A stretch of DNA of 64,000 bases, taken from the sequence record PP989839.1; one strand, 5' to 3'. Below the pieces are notes generated by a model, which worked only from the letters and a program-made list of their open reading frames with translations, ran no database searches and had not been told where the DNA came from. Both the position numbers and the translations under genes were made by a program. The stretch is from Escherichia phage VTCCBPA_322. Positions 37,002-39,411 of this stretch are shown piece by piece. How positions within the stretch are numbered: position 1 is the first letter of the stretch; every line of letters starts with the position of its first letter.

Positions 37002-37382
37002 TCAGATTGTACAACCACCACCATCACAGGTGTTGTTTTCTGCAAAGGAAGCTAGAGCCTTAGCTGTCTCCTCTTTCTCATGCAGTGCCTGACGTAGCAG
37101 GTAACCCTCTAATTCCCAAATCTTATTGAATGCATTTTCATATGCATACTGACGGCCTTTCTTCTCATCATAGATAGTTGGGTCTACACAGGCAGATACA
37201 CCTTCAACTTTGAAGCCGTTTTCTAGGATGATAATGCAATGAGTTGTCAGACCCAGGTTAGCTAAATCATCTGCCGGGAGTGCAGATGGATCAACGAATG
37301 CAGACTTCACTGCATCAGCACCATTGAAATAGTAGACGCTCTTAATCTTAGCTTCGATTGCTTCTTTACTTACTGTTGCCAT
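37002..37382 (-). CDS. hypothetical protein
   Basis: ATG 37382 (MATVSKEAIEAKIK...) with GAGG SD; track start 37394 lacks SD. Confidence 0.45.
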   Translation of the reverse strand: MATVSKEAIEAKIKSVYYFNGADAVKSAFVDPSALPADDLANLGLTTHCIIILENGFKVEGVSACVDPTIYDEKKGRQYAYENAFNKIWELEGYLLRQALHEKEETAKALASFAENNTCDGGGCTI

Positions 37383-37440
37383 TATTAGCCTCATAGAGTG
37401 GTTTTAGTGTGTGCTTAAACATGATTACGTTTATTAATAC

Positions 37441-37480
37441 TCAAATAAAAAAGTCCCCCAGAGTGACGGCTCCAGGGGAC
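37441..37480 (-). terminator. intrinsic terminator on - strand (GTCCCC/GGGGAC stem, then TTTTTTATTT)
   Basis: 6-bp GC stem 37453-37458/37475-37480 with 16-nt loop; strong U-run in - orientation; closes the ORF-poor RNA region. Confidence 0.5.
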
Positions 37481-38265
37481 TTAGTACTATTTACCCATAG
37501 CTGGGAGGCTTTTGGTTCTTACCACGAAGACAGTCCACGCTGACTAGGCTTGGGATTGATAGTCCCGTTCCTGTGGTAATTACTCAGGCTAGGATTTAAG
37601 GAGTTCCTATTCTCCAGCGAAATTCCCGTCGAGGGGAATAACAATACAATAGCAGCCACTGGACTGTCTTACCAGTGTTGTCTTTAGAGTGCTGTGCAAT
37701 CAGGACTATGTTACTGCTAAATAGGTGAGTCATGCCAGGCTCTAACTGGCTCCTTCTTCGCAATCCTTACATACCCCTACATAATTATTGCGTTAAGCTT
37801 TTTTGTTTAAGTTTAAGTGAAGGCGTTCTTGCTGACTCATAATTAGGTTGGGCGTTTGACGAATGACTAGTTCGTTACTACCCGTTTGCCATAAGTACCT
37901 GGCGACTTTGGTTTGAGGTGGGAGTCCGAGTCCTGTACAGCCTTACCGTTCACACATTGGCAGCGTATCTAGAATAGCACTTCCGGCAACTGGATTTAAC
38001 TGTTACACCTCAAATCTGGTAGGGGCGTCCAGAAGTCTCATCTGGTACTTACGCCGTCGTATGGTTACGACTTACCCCCATTGTTAGTTGCTCGGCTCAC
38101 CCCCTCGACTAAAGTGACCTTTGAGGGGCTACGCTACACTATGTGTTTCATCCCATTACAGAGAATCATCAGGCGTATTAGTTGGTCACCCCGGATACCT
38201 ACTTACCGAGCATTGGTATCGTATGACTCTTCCAATTAGAAGTAGCACTGTTGCAGTCGTCACTG

Positions 38266-38337
38266 CCCATAGGTAAGGACTCGAACCTTACAATACCATT
38301 GGTTTACAATGTCGCTGTACCATTTCGCGTTCTATGC
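38266..38337 (-). ncRNA. tRNA-like element a (possible degenerate tRNA)
   Basis: T-arm TAAGG-TTCGAGT-CCTTA then CCTATGG; 5' partner GCATAGA gives only 5 of 7 acceptor pairs; internal CATTG-TAAAC-CAATG hairpin has a 5-nt loop; no canonical anticodon loop found. Confidence 0.3.
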
Positions 38338-38352
38338 AATGCTACTTTGAAT

Positions 38353-38476
38353 TGGTTATCAGTGAAGGATTCGAACCTCCGGTTGGAGTCTATAGCTTAC
38401 CGCAGCAGCCCTCCAATCTAGCGGTGTCACACTTAGTCCAAACTTGAACATGTCAAGCCATCTCGTGCAACTGATA
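38353..38476 (-). ncRNA. tRNA-like structured RNA b (124 nt; exact acceptor stem, T-arm, encoded CCA)
   Basis: 5' TATCAGT pairs exactly with 3' ACTGATA; T-arm GGAGG-TTCGAAT-CCTTC; discriminator A and CCA encoded (38353-38355 as TGG on +); too long for a canonical tRNA. Confidence 0.4.
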
Positions 38477-38478
38477 AT

Positions 38479-38606
38479 TGGTTCCAGGAGAAGGAATCGA
38501 ACCTCCAAGTCAGGCCGTGAACCCTGACTATATCACCTACACTTAGTAGGCTTACTCTAACTGCTGCGCATTACATTAAAGCTATACCTAGTGTTGATAT
38601 CCTGGA
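38479..38606 (-). ncRNA. tRNA-like structured RNA c (128 nt; exact acceptor stem, T-arm, encoded CCA)
   Basis: 5' TCCAGGA pairs exactly with 3' TCCTGGA; T-arm GGAGG-TTCGATT-CCTTC; discriminator A + CCA; 2-nt spacer to element b; internal hairpins CCTAC-TAAGT-GTAGG and GTCAGG-GTTCACGG-CCTGAC. Confidence 0.4.
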
Positions 38607-39240
38607 ATTGGAGTTGCCAGGGATTCCACCTGGCTCCATCTGTTTTTATAGTCACTCAGATATCGTCTGGACTCTTTACTGTGGGCTGTACCGACTACTT
38701 AGAATAACTACGGCAAAGATTATTCCACAGCTTACATTGATGGTACAACCCATCAAAGAGTACACTAGCACTGGGCCACGCATAAGTGGGCATCGGCCTT
38801 CCTCCCACAGCTAATCTACTAATGTACTCATTGATAGGATGTCATAATAGGAGGGAGGGGACGAATCCTCCCTTTATACCCTATGTTGCATGTAAGACCT
38901 AACATCTCGATGTTGTATAAATAGCGTAATGAACTATCCGACATTATTGGTTAATGTTGTGCTCAACATGAGCGTTAGTTGATAAGGGATCTGAAGCCTT
39001 ATCCTAAAGATTCTAACCTTTGGGATATAGCCTAAGATTCAGAAATGGCCCCTATAGGGAGAGGCCATTGATTAACCCGAATGTTGCTTTACATTTTCTG
39101 TAATAACCAATTCTTAAAATAGTCTGTCTGACGGATGGGGGGCCACCCCTAGCGTCAGTGCCATACGGCAAAGATTAAGTTAAGAAAGGTTATGATAGGA
39201 GTTCCTATCTCAAAGGATTCTAACAGAACCCTTCACGATA

Positions 39241-39411
39241 TTAACTACTCTTTTTTAATGCCTTTACTTCACCATCTTTATACCAAGCATACGGTATTAA
39301 GATTTTGCATCCTTCCGAATCAATGTGGAATGCTTTTTTTCCTTCAGCAGGTTCTCCACCCACGAAAGAACTAACCTTTCCATTGAGCCAGTGAATAGTA
39401 AATTTGTTCAT
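39241..39411 (-). CDS. small hypothetical protein (56 aa)
   Basis: ATG 39411, TAA 39243-39241; MNKFTIHWLNGKVSSFVGGEPAEGKKAFHIDSEGCKILIPYAWYKDGEVKALKKSS; below track cutoff; just upstream of the RNA cluster. Confidence 0.3.
   Translation of the reverse strand: MNKFTIHWLNGKVSSFVGGEPAEGKKAFHIDSEGCKILIPYAWYKDGEVKALKKSS

What the first reader, a model, noticed from the sequence alone, without database searches (positions are those of the whole stretch)
37441..39240. ORF-poor 1.8 kb region with tandem over-length tRNA-like RNAs (exact acceptor stems, T-arms, encoded CCA)
On the - strand, 38266-38606 holds three consecutive elements each ending in a T-arm-like hairpin (loops TTCGAGT, TTCGAAT, TTCGATT). 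Elements b (124 nt) and c (128 nt) have exact 7-bp complementarity between their first and last 7 nt (TATCAGT/ACTGATA; TCCAGGA/TCCTGGA), a discriminator A and encoded CCA, and are only 2 nt apart, like genes in phage tRNA clusters. They are ~50 nt too long for any canonical tRNA: I could not place a D-arm or 7-nt anticodon loop, and shifting the 5' end to canonical distance gives no acceptor pairing. They share an internal CTAAGTGT block. Candidates are tRNA-derived stable RNAs (cf. T4 species 1/2 RNAs), tRNAs with insertions, or a new tRNA-like family. The region ends at a - strand terminator (37441-37480).
Basis: partly seen in the sequence, partly recalled or inferred. Interest (0 to 1): 0.85.

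Follow-up and report, generated by a model that had tools for sequence, protein, structure and literature searches.

The report
Oversized tRNA-like genes in N4-like phage
Two real, conserved genes for tRNA-shaped RNAs that cannot decode (124 and 128 nt) sit in the tRNA island of an N4-like coliphage; they belong to unannotated families found in several phage groups and are built like phage T4's 'species 1' RNA, whose function is still unknown after 50 years.

Summary
On the minus strand, b (38476..38353) and c (38606..38479) each have a canonical T arm, an exact 7-bp acceptor stem, A73 and an encoded CCA. They lie 2 nt apart. Shuffled windows give 0.005 such elements; the window has two. ARAGORN and Rfam call no tRNA there.

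The window is a Gamaleyavirus (N4-like). The region is the gp47-gp48 gap, which holds ordinary tRNA clusters in N4 and other Schitoviridae.

Both elements belong to conserved families:
- b-type occurs in 42 phage records and is never annotated as RNA.
- c-type has 13 members in four phage lineages, always inside tRNA clusters.

Compensatory changes support the acceptor, a 4-bp D-like stem and the T stem. The anticodon domain is replaced. In c, a long variable hairpin sits in the D loop with the GG retained, next to an invariant 7-bp hairpin with an 8-nt loop.

Phage T4 species 1 RNA (rnaC) has the same layout but no sequence homology.

Best reading: these are stable tRNA mimics, cut out by RNase P and matured to a CCA end, that do not decode. 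A decoy or chassis role is inferred, not shown. I rate this a new variant of a known but unexplained kind. The same region holds further unannotated structured RNAs.

The parts
38479..38606 (-). Element c: a 128-nt 'c-type' tRNA-like RNA gene. Parts in order: acceptor 5' strand 38606..38600; 4-bp D-like stem P2; variable long hairpin; GG at about 38536-38535; invariant hairpin; T arm; acceptor 3' strand plus ACCA.
   Evidence: Family alignment A7 has 13 members. The core is 97.6% paired, 7 pairs carry changes on both sides, and 0 of 500 shuffles reach the observed score.
38508..38529 (-). c: invariant hairpin AGUCAGG-GUUCACGG-CCUGACU (7-bp stem, 8-nt loop). The family consensus loop is R-K-U-C-A-Y-G-R.
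   Evidence: Six of the 7 stem pairs are identical in all 12 distinct family members, and the seventh changes on one side only in one member, although acceptor and arm 1 diverge.
38479..38506 (-). c: T arm (GGAGG UUCGAUU CCUUC, with the G53-C61 closing pair), acceptor 3' strand UCCUGGA, discriminator A, encoded CCA.
38353..38476 (-). Element b: a 124-nt 'b-type' tRNA-like RNA gene. Parts in order: acceptor; UG; D-like stem enclosing hairpin 38459..38441 and a UGG; invariant 11-nt linker 38427..38417; invariant arm 2 at 38416..38383; T arm 38380..38364; ACUGAUA-A-CCA at 38363..38353.
   Evidence: Found in 42 phage records at 90-100% identity and never annotated as RNA. The structure is 99.5% paired; compensatory changes occur in the acceptor (3 pairs), the arm-1 hairpin (1) and the T stem (1).
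38241..38346 (-). Element a: a degenerate tRNA-like core (5-bp CAUAG/CUAUG pairing, GG-containing D-like loop, T arm 38290..38274, no CCA) enclosed by a 10-bp outer stem AGUAGCAUUG/CAGUGCUACU.
   Evidence: The T stem covaries in Bas96 (UGAGG/CCUCA). In PBM-3 the outer stem is kept but the inner element is replaced (alignment A1).
38610..38673 (-). 'Up' module: a conserved leader with hairpin GGAGCCAGG-UGGAAUC-CCUGGCAACUCC. In most relatives it directly precedes the slot occupied by c or by the 66-nt type; in Jgk1 about 240 nt lie between it and c.
   Evidence: 93-100% identical across N4, KP8-like, Jgk1 and Gamaleyavirus phages.
37913..38013 (-). 'M8 core': a separate structured RNA of about 100 nt in the same transcription unit.
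   Evidence: The inner 89 nt are 98.9% identical to N4. RNAalifold on 7 sequences predicts 28 pairs, 10 of them with compensatory changes.
37650..37720 (-). 'M9a': a conserved hairpin-closed element (UAGCAG...CUGCUA).
   Evidence: 83-98% identical in 14 relatives including N4. It lies within a stretch that folds with z = -2.7.
38674..39240 (-). 5' part of the ORF-poor region: a chain of strong hairpins. It includes two copies of AUCUUUGCCGUA (39175..39164 and 38720..38709).
   Evidence: Fold z-score is -5.3, and 0 of 100 shuffles fold as well. Motif positions.
39217..39244 (-). Sigma-70-like promoter match (TTAATA-16-TG-TAGAAT) at the start of the non-coding region.
   Evidence: This is a consensus match only; the region holds no more such matches than shuffles do.
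37451..37482 (-). Intrinsic terminator that closes the RNA island, just upstream of the gp48 homologue.
   Evidence: 13-bp stem with 7 G-C pairs, followed by UUUUUAUUU.

Best explanation
b and c are functional genes for stable, tRNA-shaped RNAs that do not decode. They belong to the same kind as phage T4 species 1 RNA.

Proposed mechanism:
1. They are transcribed with the rest of the minus-strand RNA island, between gp47 and the terminator at 37482..37451.
2. RNase P cuts at their 5' ends. The features it needs are present: a 12-bp acceptor/T-arm helix, a canonical T loop, U at -1, and an encoded ACCA.
3. Their 3' ends are trimmed to CCA, as for the true tRNAs that occupy this locus in related phages.
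4. The retained D-like stem plus GG lets the T loop form a tRNA elbow.
5. The anticodon domain is replaced by other arms. In c this is a lineage-variable hairpin in the D loop plus a sequence-invariant 7-bp/8-nt-loop hairpin. In b it is an invariant linker and arm 2.
6. These arms are displayed on a nuclease-resistant tRNA chassis.

Shown here: the anatomy, conservation, covariation, genomic context and spread across phage lineages.

Inferred: the processing, the stability, and the role. I think the most likely role is binding or titrating a conserved enterobacterial tRNA-recognising factor, such as a tRNA-targeting defence nuclease or a tRNA enzyme. That would make them decoys or host-takeover RNAs.
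For: Non-random anatomy.

Same slot, strand, spacers (AAU/AU) and encoded CCA as bona fide tRNAs in N4 and other Schitoviridae.

The c-type covariance model aligns end to end with true tRNAs (best to tRNA-Ser and tRNA-Leu), the 66-nt type and b at about 25-32 bits.

Covariation:
- c-type acceptor has 5 of 7 pairs with changes on both sides. P2 has 2 of 4. Overall 97.6% of cells are paired, against 36-53% when partners are slid.
- b-type has 5 compensated pairs and is 99.5% paired.

Constraint beyond structure:
- The c hairpin is invariant across four lineages.
- In b, the D-like stem, the 11-nt linker and all arm-2 pairs never vary, while flanking DNA is 78-83% identical.
- Arm 1 of c also covaries within the Klebsiella phage lineage.

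Distribution:
- Horizontal spread: Gamaleyavirus, Cbunavirus, Erwinia phage Gungnir39, Klebsiella Stephanstirmvirinae and metagenomic phages of about 150 kb, always next to tRNAs.
- Absent from E. coli genomes. In the 100,044-species bacterial genome set, only the c hairpin pattern was scanned; its 6 hits look like chance.

Cassette-like presence, absence and replacement among close relatives is typical of accessory or counter-defence loci.

T4 rnaC has the same layout, and its acceptor and T stem covary. It accumulates as a discrete RNA in infected cells (PMC9697503).

tRNA-targeting defences, with phage tRNAs as countermeasures or decoys, are documented (PMC10264068, PMC13096335).
Against: - There is no expression, processing or binding data for b or c.
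- b's D-like stem, linker and arm 2 never vary, so their structure is untested. The sampled phages are close (90-100% identical), so invariance is weaker evidence than it looks.
- The window's own c carries CAC where 12 relatives have CAU in the invariant loop.
- No target or partner was identified. There are no antisense matches in the phage above chance.
- The role of the T4 analogue is itself unknown (PMC3014915, PMC9697503, PMC12685909).
Confidence: 0.6

Rival explanations
1. They act only in cis. On this view the tRNA-like modules are RNase P/RNase E punctuation that cuts the long RNA-island transcript, or protective end structures. The excised RNAs would have no function of their own.
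For: They sit in a densely structured polycistronic region with conserved AU-rich spacers. Only the top half of the tRNA, the part RNase P recognises, is canonical.
Against: Punctuation needs only the acceptor/T-arm minihelix. It does not explain the invariant hairpin of c across four phage lineages, the invariant 11-nt linker and arm 2 of b, or the covarying arm 1. True tRNAs already provide punctuation in the relatives.
Confidence: 0.13
2. They are unusual but working tRNAs. An expanded D loop is tolerated, the c hairpin is the anticodon arm (CAU/CAC, or UCA in another register, in an 8-nt loop), and the RNA is aminoacylated and used in translation, for example for start codons, frameshifting or UGA.
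For: - A 4-bp D-like stem with GG is retained, the T loop is canonical, and A73 plus CCA are present.
- The loop keeps U-C-A-Y in all members.
- c-type genes lie next to tRNA-Met or tRNA-Ile2 in two lineages.
- Relatives carry other odd 'tRNAs'.
Against: - The stem is 7 bp with an 8-nt loop, there are no nucleotides 8-9, and the variable region is 1 nt.
- A 60-75-nt helix projects from the elbow, the part that contacts the ribosome. This is my inference from tRNA geometry.
- b has no candidate anticodon loop at all.
- Not recognised by the Rfam tRNA model or by ARAGORN.
- The window's own copy has changed the 'anticodon'.
Confidence: 0.1
3. They are decaying tRNA genes or recombination debris in a tRNA island that Gamaleyaviruses no longer need.
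For: The locus holds true tRNAs in relatives, while the window has none. The island is a mosaic of insertions and deletions. Element a does look degenerate.
Against: - Compensatory substitutions maintain the stems.
- Identity is higher than in the flanks.
- The same family occurs in unrelated phages of Erwinia, Pectobacterium and Klebsiella.
- b is 90-100% identical in 42 records.
Confidence: 0.07
4. They are ordinary tRNAs interrupted by a small intron or mobile insertion that is removed after transcription.
For: At 70% of its threshold, ARAGORN's intron mode models b as an 84-nt tRNA plus a 40-nt intron, and c as a 98-nt tRNA plus a 30-nt intron, with the full outer boundaries.
Against: - Those models have mismatched D and anticodon stems. 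They place the 'anticodon' in sequence that is not conserved between c-type lineages.
- The inserts are far too small for group I introns, and no intron or ribozyme family matches.
- From general knowledge, enterobacteria have no protein-dependent tRNA splicing.
Confidence: 0.05

Closest known systems
Phage T4 species 1 RNA (rnaC, 139 nt), and its neighbour species 2 RNA (rnaD)
   Same: - Encoded inside a phage tRNA cluster on the tRNA strand, with AU-rich spacers.
- Length 119-139 nt.
- rnaC has an acceptor-like pairing of its ends, a short D-like stem enclosing a long hairpin followed by GG, a second hairpin with a conserved loop, and then a T arm (CCGGG UUCGAAU CCCGG).
- Its acceptor and T stems covary among T-even phages.
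- Function unknown (PMC3014915, PMC9697503, PMC12685909).
   Different: - No significant sequence similarity, and rnaC is not detected by the c-type covariance model.
- rnaC has two U-U mismatches in the acceptor and encodes xCA rather than CCA.
- rnaD has no T arm.
- b and c have exact 7-bp acceptors and an encoded ACCA.
Canonical bacterial and phage tRNAs, especially type II (Ser, Leu, Tyr)
   Same: 7-bp acceptor, discriminator, CCA, and a 5-bp T stem with G53-C61 and a UUCGANU loop. Same locus and spacing as real tRNAs. The c-type model aligns globally to tRNA-Ser and tRNA-Leu at about 29-32 bits.
   Different: No normal D arm, no 5-bp/7-nt anticodon arm, and length of 124-128 nt. Not called by ARAGORN or Rfam.
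The 66-67-nt D-armless tRNA-like gene of N4, Gamaleyavirus and KP8-like phages (sometimes annotated tRNA-OTHER or tRNA-Undet)
   Same: It occupies the same slot after the 'up' module and has the same start to its acceptor (UCC.G), A73 and CCA. Its hairpin loop GUGCACR resembles the c loop GUUCACGG.
   Different: It lacks the D-like stem and the long arm 1, and its hairpin has a 4-5-bp covarying stem with a 7-nt loop.
Engineered 'tRNA scaffold' RNAs (Ponchon-Dardel) and herpesvirus MHV68 tRNA-miRNA transcripts (TMERs)
   Same: They may work alike: a tRNA chassis supplies processing, CCA ends and stability for a non-tRNA payload. The scaffold approach is reported in PMC3753655; the TMER comparison is from my own knowledge.
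   Different: These are analogies only, one synthetic and one eukaryotic-viral. In the scaffold the payload replaces the anticodon arm, whereas in c the large insert is in the D loop.
tmRNA tRNA-like domain; bacterial Y-RNA-like YrlA
   Same: They are partial tRNA mimics with a T arm.
   Different: tmRNA needs a tag reading frame, pseudoknots and G3-U70. ARAGORN's tmRNA mode finds none. YrlA has its termini at a Ro-binding stem, not at an acceptor with CCA. There is no Rfam match.

Membership tests
Canonical tRNA | Recognised by tRNA gene finders or covariance models | tested here: not met
   ARAGORN finds 0 genes in the window and 0 with intron or mitochondrial modes. Rfam RF00005 is absent even at E<=10.
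Canonical tRNA | 7-bp acceptor stem, discriminator base, 3' CCA | tested here: met
   b: UAUCAGU/ACUGAUA-A-CCA. c: UCCAGGA/UCCUGGA-A-CCA. Both covary.
Canonical tRNA | T arm: 5-bp stem closed by G53-C61, with a 7-nt UUCRANY loop | tested here: met
   GGAGG-UUCGAUU-CCUUC in c and GGAGG-UUCGAAU-CCUUC in b.
Canonical tRNA | D arm: 3-4-bp stem with a 7-11-nt loop carrying G18 G19 | tested here: not met
   c has a covarying 4-bp stem and a GG placed 1-3 nt before its 3' strand, but the loop holds a hairpin of about 60-75 nt. b is similar, with an invariant stem.
Canonical tRNA | Anticodon arm: 5-bp stem, 7-nt loop with U33 and a purine at 37 | tested here: not met
   c has a 7-bp stem and an 8-nt loop. 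b has no candidate.
Canonical tRNA | Aminoacylation and use on the ribosome | not testable with these tools
   Needs acid-gel or periodate assays and polysome analysis.
T4 species 1 RNA (rnaC) family | Encoded within a phage tRNA cluster on the tRNA strand | tested here: met
   The gp47-gp48 tRNA island. c-type genes always lie beside tRNAs.
T4 species 1 RNA (rnaC) family | Layout: paired termini, long hairpin within a D-like stem followed by GG, second hairpin, then a T arm near the 3' end | tested here: met
   rnaC fold and three-phage alignment, compared with the c and b structures. The rnaC layout rests on inspection plus 3 sequences only.
T4 species 1 RNA (rnaC) family | Sequence or covariance-model homology to rnaC | tested here: not met
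   The Smith-Waterman score is no better than shuffles. The c-type model does not hit rnaC at E<=10.
T4 species 1 RNA (rnaC) family | Accumulates as a discrete stable RNA during infection | not testable with these tools
   Shown for T4 RNAC by Northern blot (PMC9697503). No data for this phage.
tmRNA | tRNA-like domain plus a tag-peptide reading frame | tested here: not met
   ARAGORN tmRNA search finds none. No G3-U70.
tRNA with a group I intron or self-cleaving ribozyme | Match to an intron or ribozyme family; an insert large enough to be catalytic | tested here: not met
   No Rfam match. The only ribozyme-like hit is Hammerhead_3 at 18.8 bits against a gathering score of 48.5, and it lies outside b and c. 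The inserts are 30-75 nt.
Y-RNA-like YrlA | Ro-binding terminal stem plus an internal tRNA-like domain | tested here: not met
   No Rfam match. The termini form an acceptor stem with CCA.

The most novel reading that the evidence does not exclude
b-type, c-type, the 66-nt type and T4 species 1 RNA together form a widespread, overlooked class of phage 'expanded tRNA mimics'. On this reading they are RNA-based counter-defence or host-takeover factors. They would be matured by the host's own tRNA machinery and would then trap a conserved enterobacterial tRNA-recognising protein, for example a tRNA-cleaving immune nuclease. The gp47-gp48 gap of N4-like phages would be an RNA anti-defence island whose cassettes are swapped between phages.
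Probability: 0.2. Interest if true: 0.85.

Novelty: new variant of a known kind. Interest (0 to 1): 0.6.

Why it matters
- Small stable RNAs in phage tRNA clusters have been known in T4 since the 1970s, and no function has been found. Showing that unrelated phages (N4-like, Stephanstirmvirinae, Gungnir39) carry independent families with the same design makes the question comparative and testable. The design is a tRNA top half, a D-like stem with GG, an inserted hairpin, and an invariant non-anticodon hairpin, all with clear covariation.
- It identifies which parts are constrained, namely the c hairpin and b's linker and arm 2. These are the parts to mutate.
- It shows natural allele swaps. The window has c-type where 63 records have the 66-nt type, and b is present in only 42 of about 195 related records. 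These swaps can be used for host-range or defence-panel experiments.
- Practically, dozens of deposited genomes leave these genes unannotated, or cover them with spurious small ORFs or odd 'tRNA-OTHER' calls.

Tried and rejected
- **Ordinary tRNAs with other boundaries.** Rejected.
- **tRNA plus intron.** This appears only at 70% of ARAGORN's threshold, with bad stems and non-conserved 'anticodons'.
- **tmRNA, YrlA, group I intron, hammerhead.** No credible match. The weak Hammerhead_3 hit at 38201..38140 scores 18.8 against 48.5 bits and has a poor helix I.
- **Sequence homology to T4 rnaC or rnaD.** Not significant. Only a 12-mer is shared.
- **Antisense targets of b and c in the 64-kb window.** Only 11-12-mers at chance level.
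- **Origin from host tRNAs or prophages.** No blastn match in 5,426 E. coli genomes at E<=10. The 6 pattern hits in 100,044 bacterial genomes are terminator-like chance matches without a T arm.
- **Protein coding.** None of 8 ORFs tested inside the region has a PHROG family. The 56-aa ORF at 39241-39411, outside the region, does.
- **IMG/VR pattern scans for more b and c homologues.** They returned only lineages already in hand.
- **Literature searches.** They found no description of these elements.
- **Shared ACTAAGTGT block as a functional motif.** Not conserved in Jgk1's c, so probably chance.
Full report
**1. What is in the sequence**

A motif scan of both strands of the whole window finds three strict T arms with a UUCGANU loop, all within 38606..38266.

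Two of them are followed at once by a 7-nt strand, an A and CCA. The exact Watson-Crick complement of that strand lies 124 nt upstream for b (38476..38353) and 128 nt upstream for c (38606..38479). The two elements are separated by only 'AU'.

In 200 dinucleotide-preserving shuffles of the window, the mean number of such complete elements is 0.005, against 2 observed.

Standard tools find nothing:
- ARAGORN finds no tRNA or tmRNA in the window, and none with intron, mitochondrial or tmRNA modes.
- Rfam returns nothing at gathering thresholds and only weak noise at E<=10.

The terminator at 37482..37451 is confirmed. The region has no minus-strand ORF above 55 aa, and none of 8 ORFs tested inside it has a PHROG family.

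Element a (T arm 38290..38274) is weaker. It has a 5-bp acceptor-like pairing and no CCA, and it is enclosed by a 10-bp outer stem.

**2. Where we are**

blastn places the window in Gamaleyavirus, the G7C/N4-like phages of the Schitoviridae. The ORF downstream (37002-37394, minus strand) is the N4 gp48 homologue, so the region is the gp47-gp48 gap.

N4 itself has an unannotated 1.5-kb gap there. That gap holds tRNA-Asn, -Ser, -Thr and -Pro.

More distant Schitoviridae carry clusters of two to seven ordinary tRNAs in the same place. All have an encoded CCA and AAU-type spacers.

The locus is therefore an ancestral tRNA island. In the window it contains no canonical tRNA. It is a mosaic of modules that are inserted, lost or replaced between close relatives.

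**3. b is a conserved family**

b occurs in 42 phage records (E. coli Gamaleyaviruses and Klebsiella KP8-like phages) at 90-100% identity. The annotation under it is always 'none' or a hypothetical protein.

In a 12-sequence alignment, most of the variable positions lie in stems, and five stem pairs change on both sides so that pairing is kept:
- The acceptor changes from UAUCAGU/ACUGAUA to UACCAGU/ACUGGUA to UACUGGU/ACCAGUA.
- The T stem changes from GGAGG/CCUUC to GGGGG/CCCUC.
- The arm-1 hairpin changes from GCUUGA/UCAAGU to GCCUGG/UCAGGU.

For the tRNA-like structure, 99.5% of cells are paired, against 25-48% when partners are slid. Five pairs carry double changes.

The D-like stem, an 11-nt linker (ACACCGCUAGA) and all pairs of the 34-nt arm 2 never vary. 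Flanking DNA between the same phages is only 78-83% identical.

**4. c is a conserved, horizontally spread family**

Full-length c occurs in one other coliphage, Jgk1. Its 3' half led to relatives in several other groups:
- Pectobacterium Cbunaviruses
- Erwinia phage Gungnir39, a 48.6-kb phage outside the Schitoviridae
- Klebsiella Stephanstirmvirinae of 140-150 kb

A metagenome scan added four more, all inside tRNA clusters.

A covariance model built from seven members recovers 13 members at 96-153 bits. On that alignment:
- The acceptor is 100% paired, with double changes in 5 of 7 pairs.
- A 4-bp stem abutting the acceptor (P2) has double changes in 2 pairs.
- Overall 97.6% of cells pair, against 36-53% in slid controls, and 0 of 500 shuffles reach the observed score.

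P2 encloses a hairpin of 60-75 nt. Its sequence differs between lineages but covaries within the Klebsiella lineage. It is followed by an invariant GG, 1-3 nt before the 3' strand of P2. This is where G18 G19 sit in a tRNA D loop (my reading of alignment A6).

Next comes a hairpin, AGUCAGG-[R-K-U-C-A-Y-G-R]-CCUGAYU. Six of its 7 stem pairs are identical in all 12 distinct sequences, and the seventh changes on one side only in one member. Then come 1 nt, the T arm, the acceptor, A or G, and CCA.

The same model aligns globally, at about 25-32 bits, to true tRNAs (best to tRNA-Ser and tRNA-Leu), to the 66-nt type and to b. So c is tRNA-derived over its whole frame.

The family was not found in E. 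coli genomes. The six hits of its hairpin pattern in 100,044 bacterial genomes are chance terminator-like hairpins.

**5. The slot**

In 63 phage records, including N4, the position directly after the conserved 'up' module is filled by a different gene. It is a 66-67-nt tRNA-like gene without a D arm: UCCGGUG...CGCCGGA-A-CCA, with a covarying short hairpin and a GUGCACR loop. The window and Jgk1 carry c-type instead.

b is present in about a fifth of the related records (42 of about 195). Element a is present in only a few.

Other tRNA clusters of this phage family carry further non-tRNA structured RNAs between tRNAs:
- a 146-nt element with a T arm and CCA
- elements of about 110 nt closed by GAAGRGU/ACYCUUC-A-CCN
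- 82-nt long hairpins

**6. Comparison with what is known**

T4 encodes two small stable RNAs, rnaC (species 1) and rnaD (species 2), at the end of its tRNA cluster. Their roles are still described as unknown (PMC3014915, PMC9697503, PMC12685909).

Folding rnaC and aligning it with Serratia and Yersinia T-even homologues gives this layout: an acceptor-like stem, a short D-like stem enclosing a long hairpin followed by GG, a second hairpin with an invariant loop, and a covarying T arm. The acceptor-like stem is CGAUUCG/CGUUUCG with two U-U mismatches in T4. It is fully paired as CGGUCCG/CGGACUG in the Yersinia phage. This is the layout of c.

There is no sequence homology:
- Local alignment scores are no better than shuffles.
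- The c-type model does not detect rnaC.

I therefore file b and c as working like, and built like, T4 species 1 RNA, but not as members of its sequence family. They fail the defining tests for a canonical tRNA (D arm, anticodon arm, length, detection), for tmRNA, for YrlA and for intron-containing tRNAs.

**7. Mechanism**

The parts that are kept are the ones bacterial RNase P, 3' trimming and CCA repair, and the T-loop modification enzymes are known to use. These are a 12-bp acceptor/T helix, G53-C61, the UUCGANU loop, U at -1 and the RCCA end. They occur in the same spacing as the neighbouring real tRNAs of related phages.

I therefore infer that b and c are excised from the island transcript and accumulate as tRNA-shaped RNAs. 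Because the anticodon domain is replaced, they should not decode.

The strongest sequence constraint lies in the non-tRNA arms, which points to a sequence-specific partner. Three features fit an accessory host-interaction or counter-defence role:
- cassette-like turnover between close relatives
- spread across unrelated enterobacterial phages
- absence from host genomes

tRNA-targeting defences, with phage tRNAs as countermeasures or decoys, are documented (PMC10264068, PMC13096335). This last step is inference. I give the overall 'stable non-decoding tRNA mimic' reading 0.6, and the specific decoy reading about 0.2.

The rivals are cis-only punctuation, unusual decoding tRNAs, pseudogenes, and spliced tRNAs. 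They are listed separately with their evidence.

**8. Limits**

- There is no expression or biochemical evidence.
- The b alignment is shallow.
- The rnaC comparison rests on three sequences and inspection.
- The mapping of the arms of c and b onto D, anticodon and variable arms is ambiguous. ARAGORN, at relaxed thresholds, treats the invariant hairpin of c as a variable arm.
- The window's own c has CAC where all relatives have CAU in the loop.

Noticed in passing
window 38013..37913 (minus strand); N4 L041:11232-11320: A separate structured RNA of about 100 nt ('M8 core'). Its inner 89 nt are 98.9% identical between N4 and this Gamaleyavirus. Its closing stem covaries (UUGAGGUG/CACCUCAA against GUGGGAUG/CAUCCCAC). 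RNAalifold gives 28 pairs, 10 of them compensated, in 7 sequences that include distant IMG/VR phages. There is no Rfam family.
   Followed up: partly
window 38673..38610 (minus strand): The 'up' module is 93-100% identical across N4, KP8-like, Jgk1 and Gamaleyavirus phages. That is more conserved than the neighbouring proteins. In most relatives it directly precedes the slot filled by the 66-nt type or c-type; in Jgk1 about 240 nt lie between them. It contains a T-arm-like hairpin, CCAGG-UGGAAUC-CCUGG.
   Followed up: partly
N4 RefSeq NC_008720, 32112-33632 (L041:10113-11633): The feature table returned for the N4 reference record lists nothing in the gp47-gp48 gap. ARAGORN finds tRNA-Asn, -Ser, -Thr and -Pro there. 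The gap also holds the 66-nt tRNA-like gene, a T-arm element inside an 11-bp outer stem, and homologues of M8 core and M9a.
   Followed up: partly
L041:10870-10935; L001:1586-1651; L032:1762-1828: A 66-67-nt tRNA-like gene without a D arm, with a conserved loop GUGCACR (a 6-nt palindrome). It is 100% identical between N4 and several Gamaleyaviruses, occurs in 63 records, and is only occasionally annotated, as tRNA-OTHER or tRNA-Undet.
   Followed up: partly
L011:3101-3222, L018:3445-3565, L019:3211-3331; L015:3295-3376, L021:2964-3045; L019:3504-3649: Other non-tRNA structured RNAs lie between true tRNAs in related phages. One type is a multi-hairpin RNA of about 110 nt closed by GAAGRGU/ACYCUUC-A-CCN, with covariation. 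Another is an 82-nt long hairpin ending in CCU. A third is a 146-nt element with a T arm and ACCA.
   Followed up: no
window 39175..39164 and 38720..38709 (minus strand); L013:3053; T4 rnaC and rnaD: The 12-mer AUCUUUGCCGUA occurs twice in the island, on the minus strand only, and also in T4 rnaC. T4 rnaD has AAUAAUCUUUGCG. A CCUUUGCCG lies about 45 nt upstream of the first tRNA in Cbunavirus-like contigs. It could be a promoter, a processing motif or chance.
   Followed up: partly
window 39240..38674 (minus strand): The 5' third of the ORF-poor region folds far better than shuffles (z = -5.3) into a chain of strong hairpins. It is conserved in Gamaleyaviruses. In Jgk1, a cluster of five true tRNAs ends where window 38842 aligns.
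   Followed up: no
window 38346..38241 (minus strand) against L001 (PBM-3): The 10-bp outer stem around element a is kept in PBM-3, while the inner tRNA-like core is replaced by an unrelated small hairpin. This looks like cassette exchange inside a conserved stem.
   Followed up: no
L001:2225-2384; L006:2830-2908; L002:1178-1249; L032:898-972: The 'tRNAs' of close relatives are themselves odd. They include anticodons AAU (Ile), ACA (Cys) and CGC (Ala), and two with 2-nt 'anticodons' (ARAGORN calls them tRNA-???). This suggests that many genes of this island are non-standard.
   Followed up: no
c-type, b-type and 66-nt hairpin loops: Many of the loops are self-complementary: UCAUGA in the Klebsiella c-type, UCAUGG (with G-U pairs) in other c-type members, ACAUGU in b, and GUGCAC in the 66-nt type. 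Loop-loop kissing is therefore conceivable. The window's c (UCACGG) and two b variants (AUAUGU) break the pattern.
   Followed up: no
L031:3631-3705; L059:2791-2865; L060:7862-7934: The large Klebsiella and metagenomic phages that carry c-type also encode a tRNA with anticodon CUA, which reads the amber codon (ARAGORN labels it 'tRNA-Pyl'). It is probably a suppressor tRNA.
   Followed up: no
window 38201..38140 (minus strand): A weak Hammerhead_3 match (18.8 bits against a gathering score of 48.5, E = 1.3) contains the CUGAUGA and GAAAC core motifs, but helices I and III are poor. Among the loci compared, the segment has a counterpart only in PD205. I judged it to be noise.
   Followed up: partly
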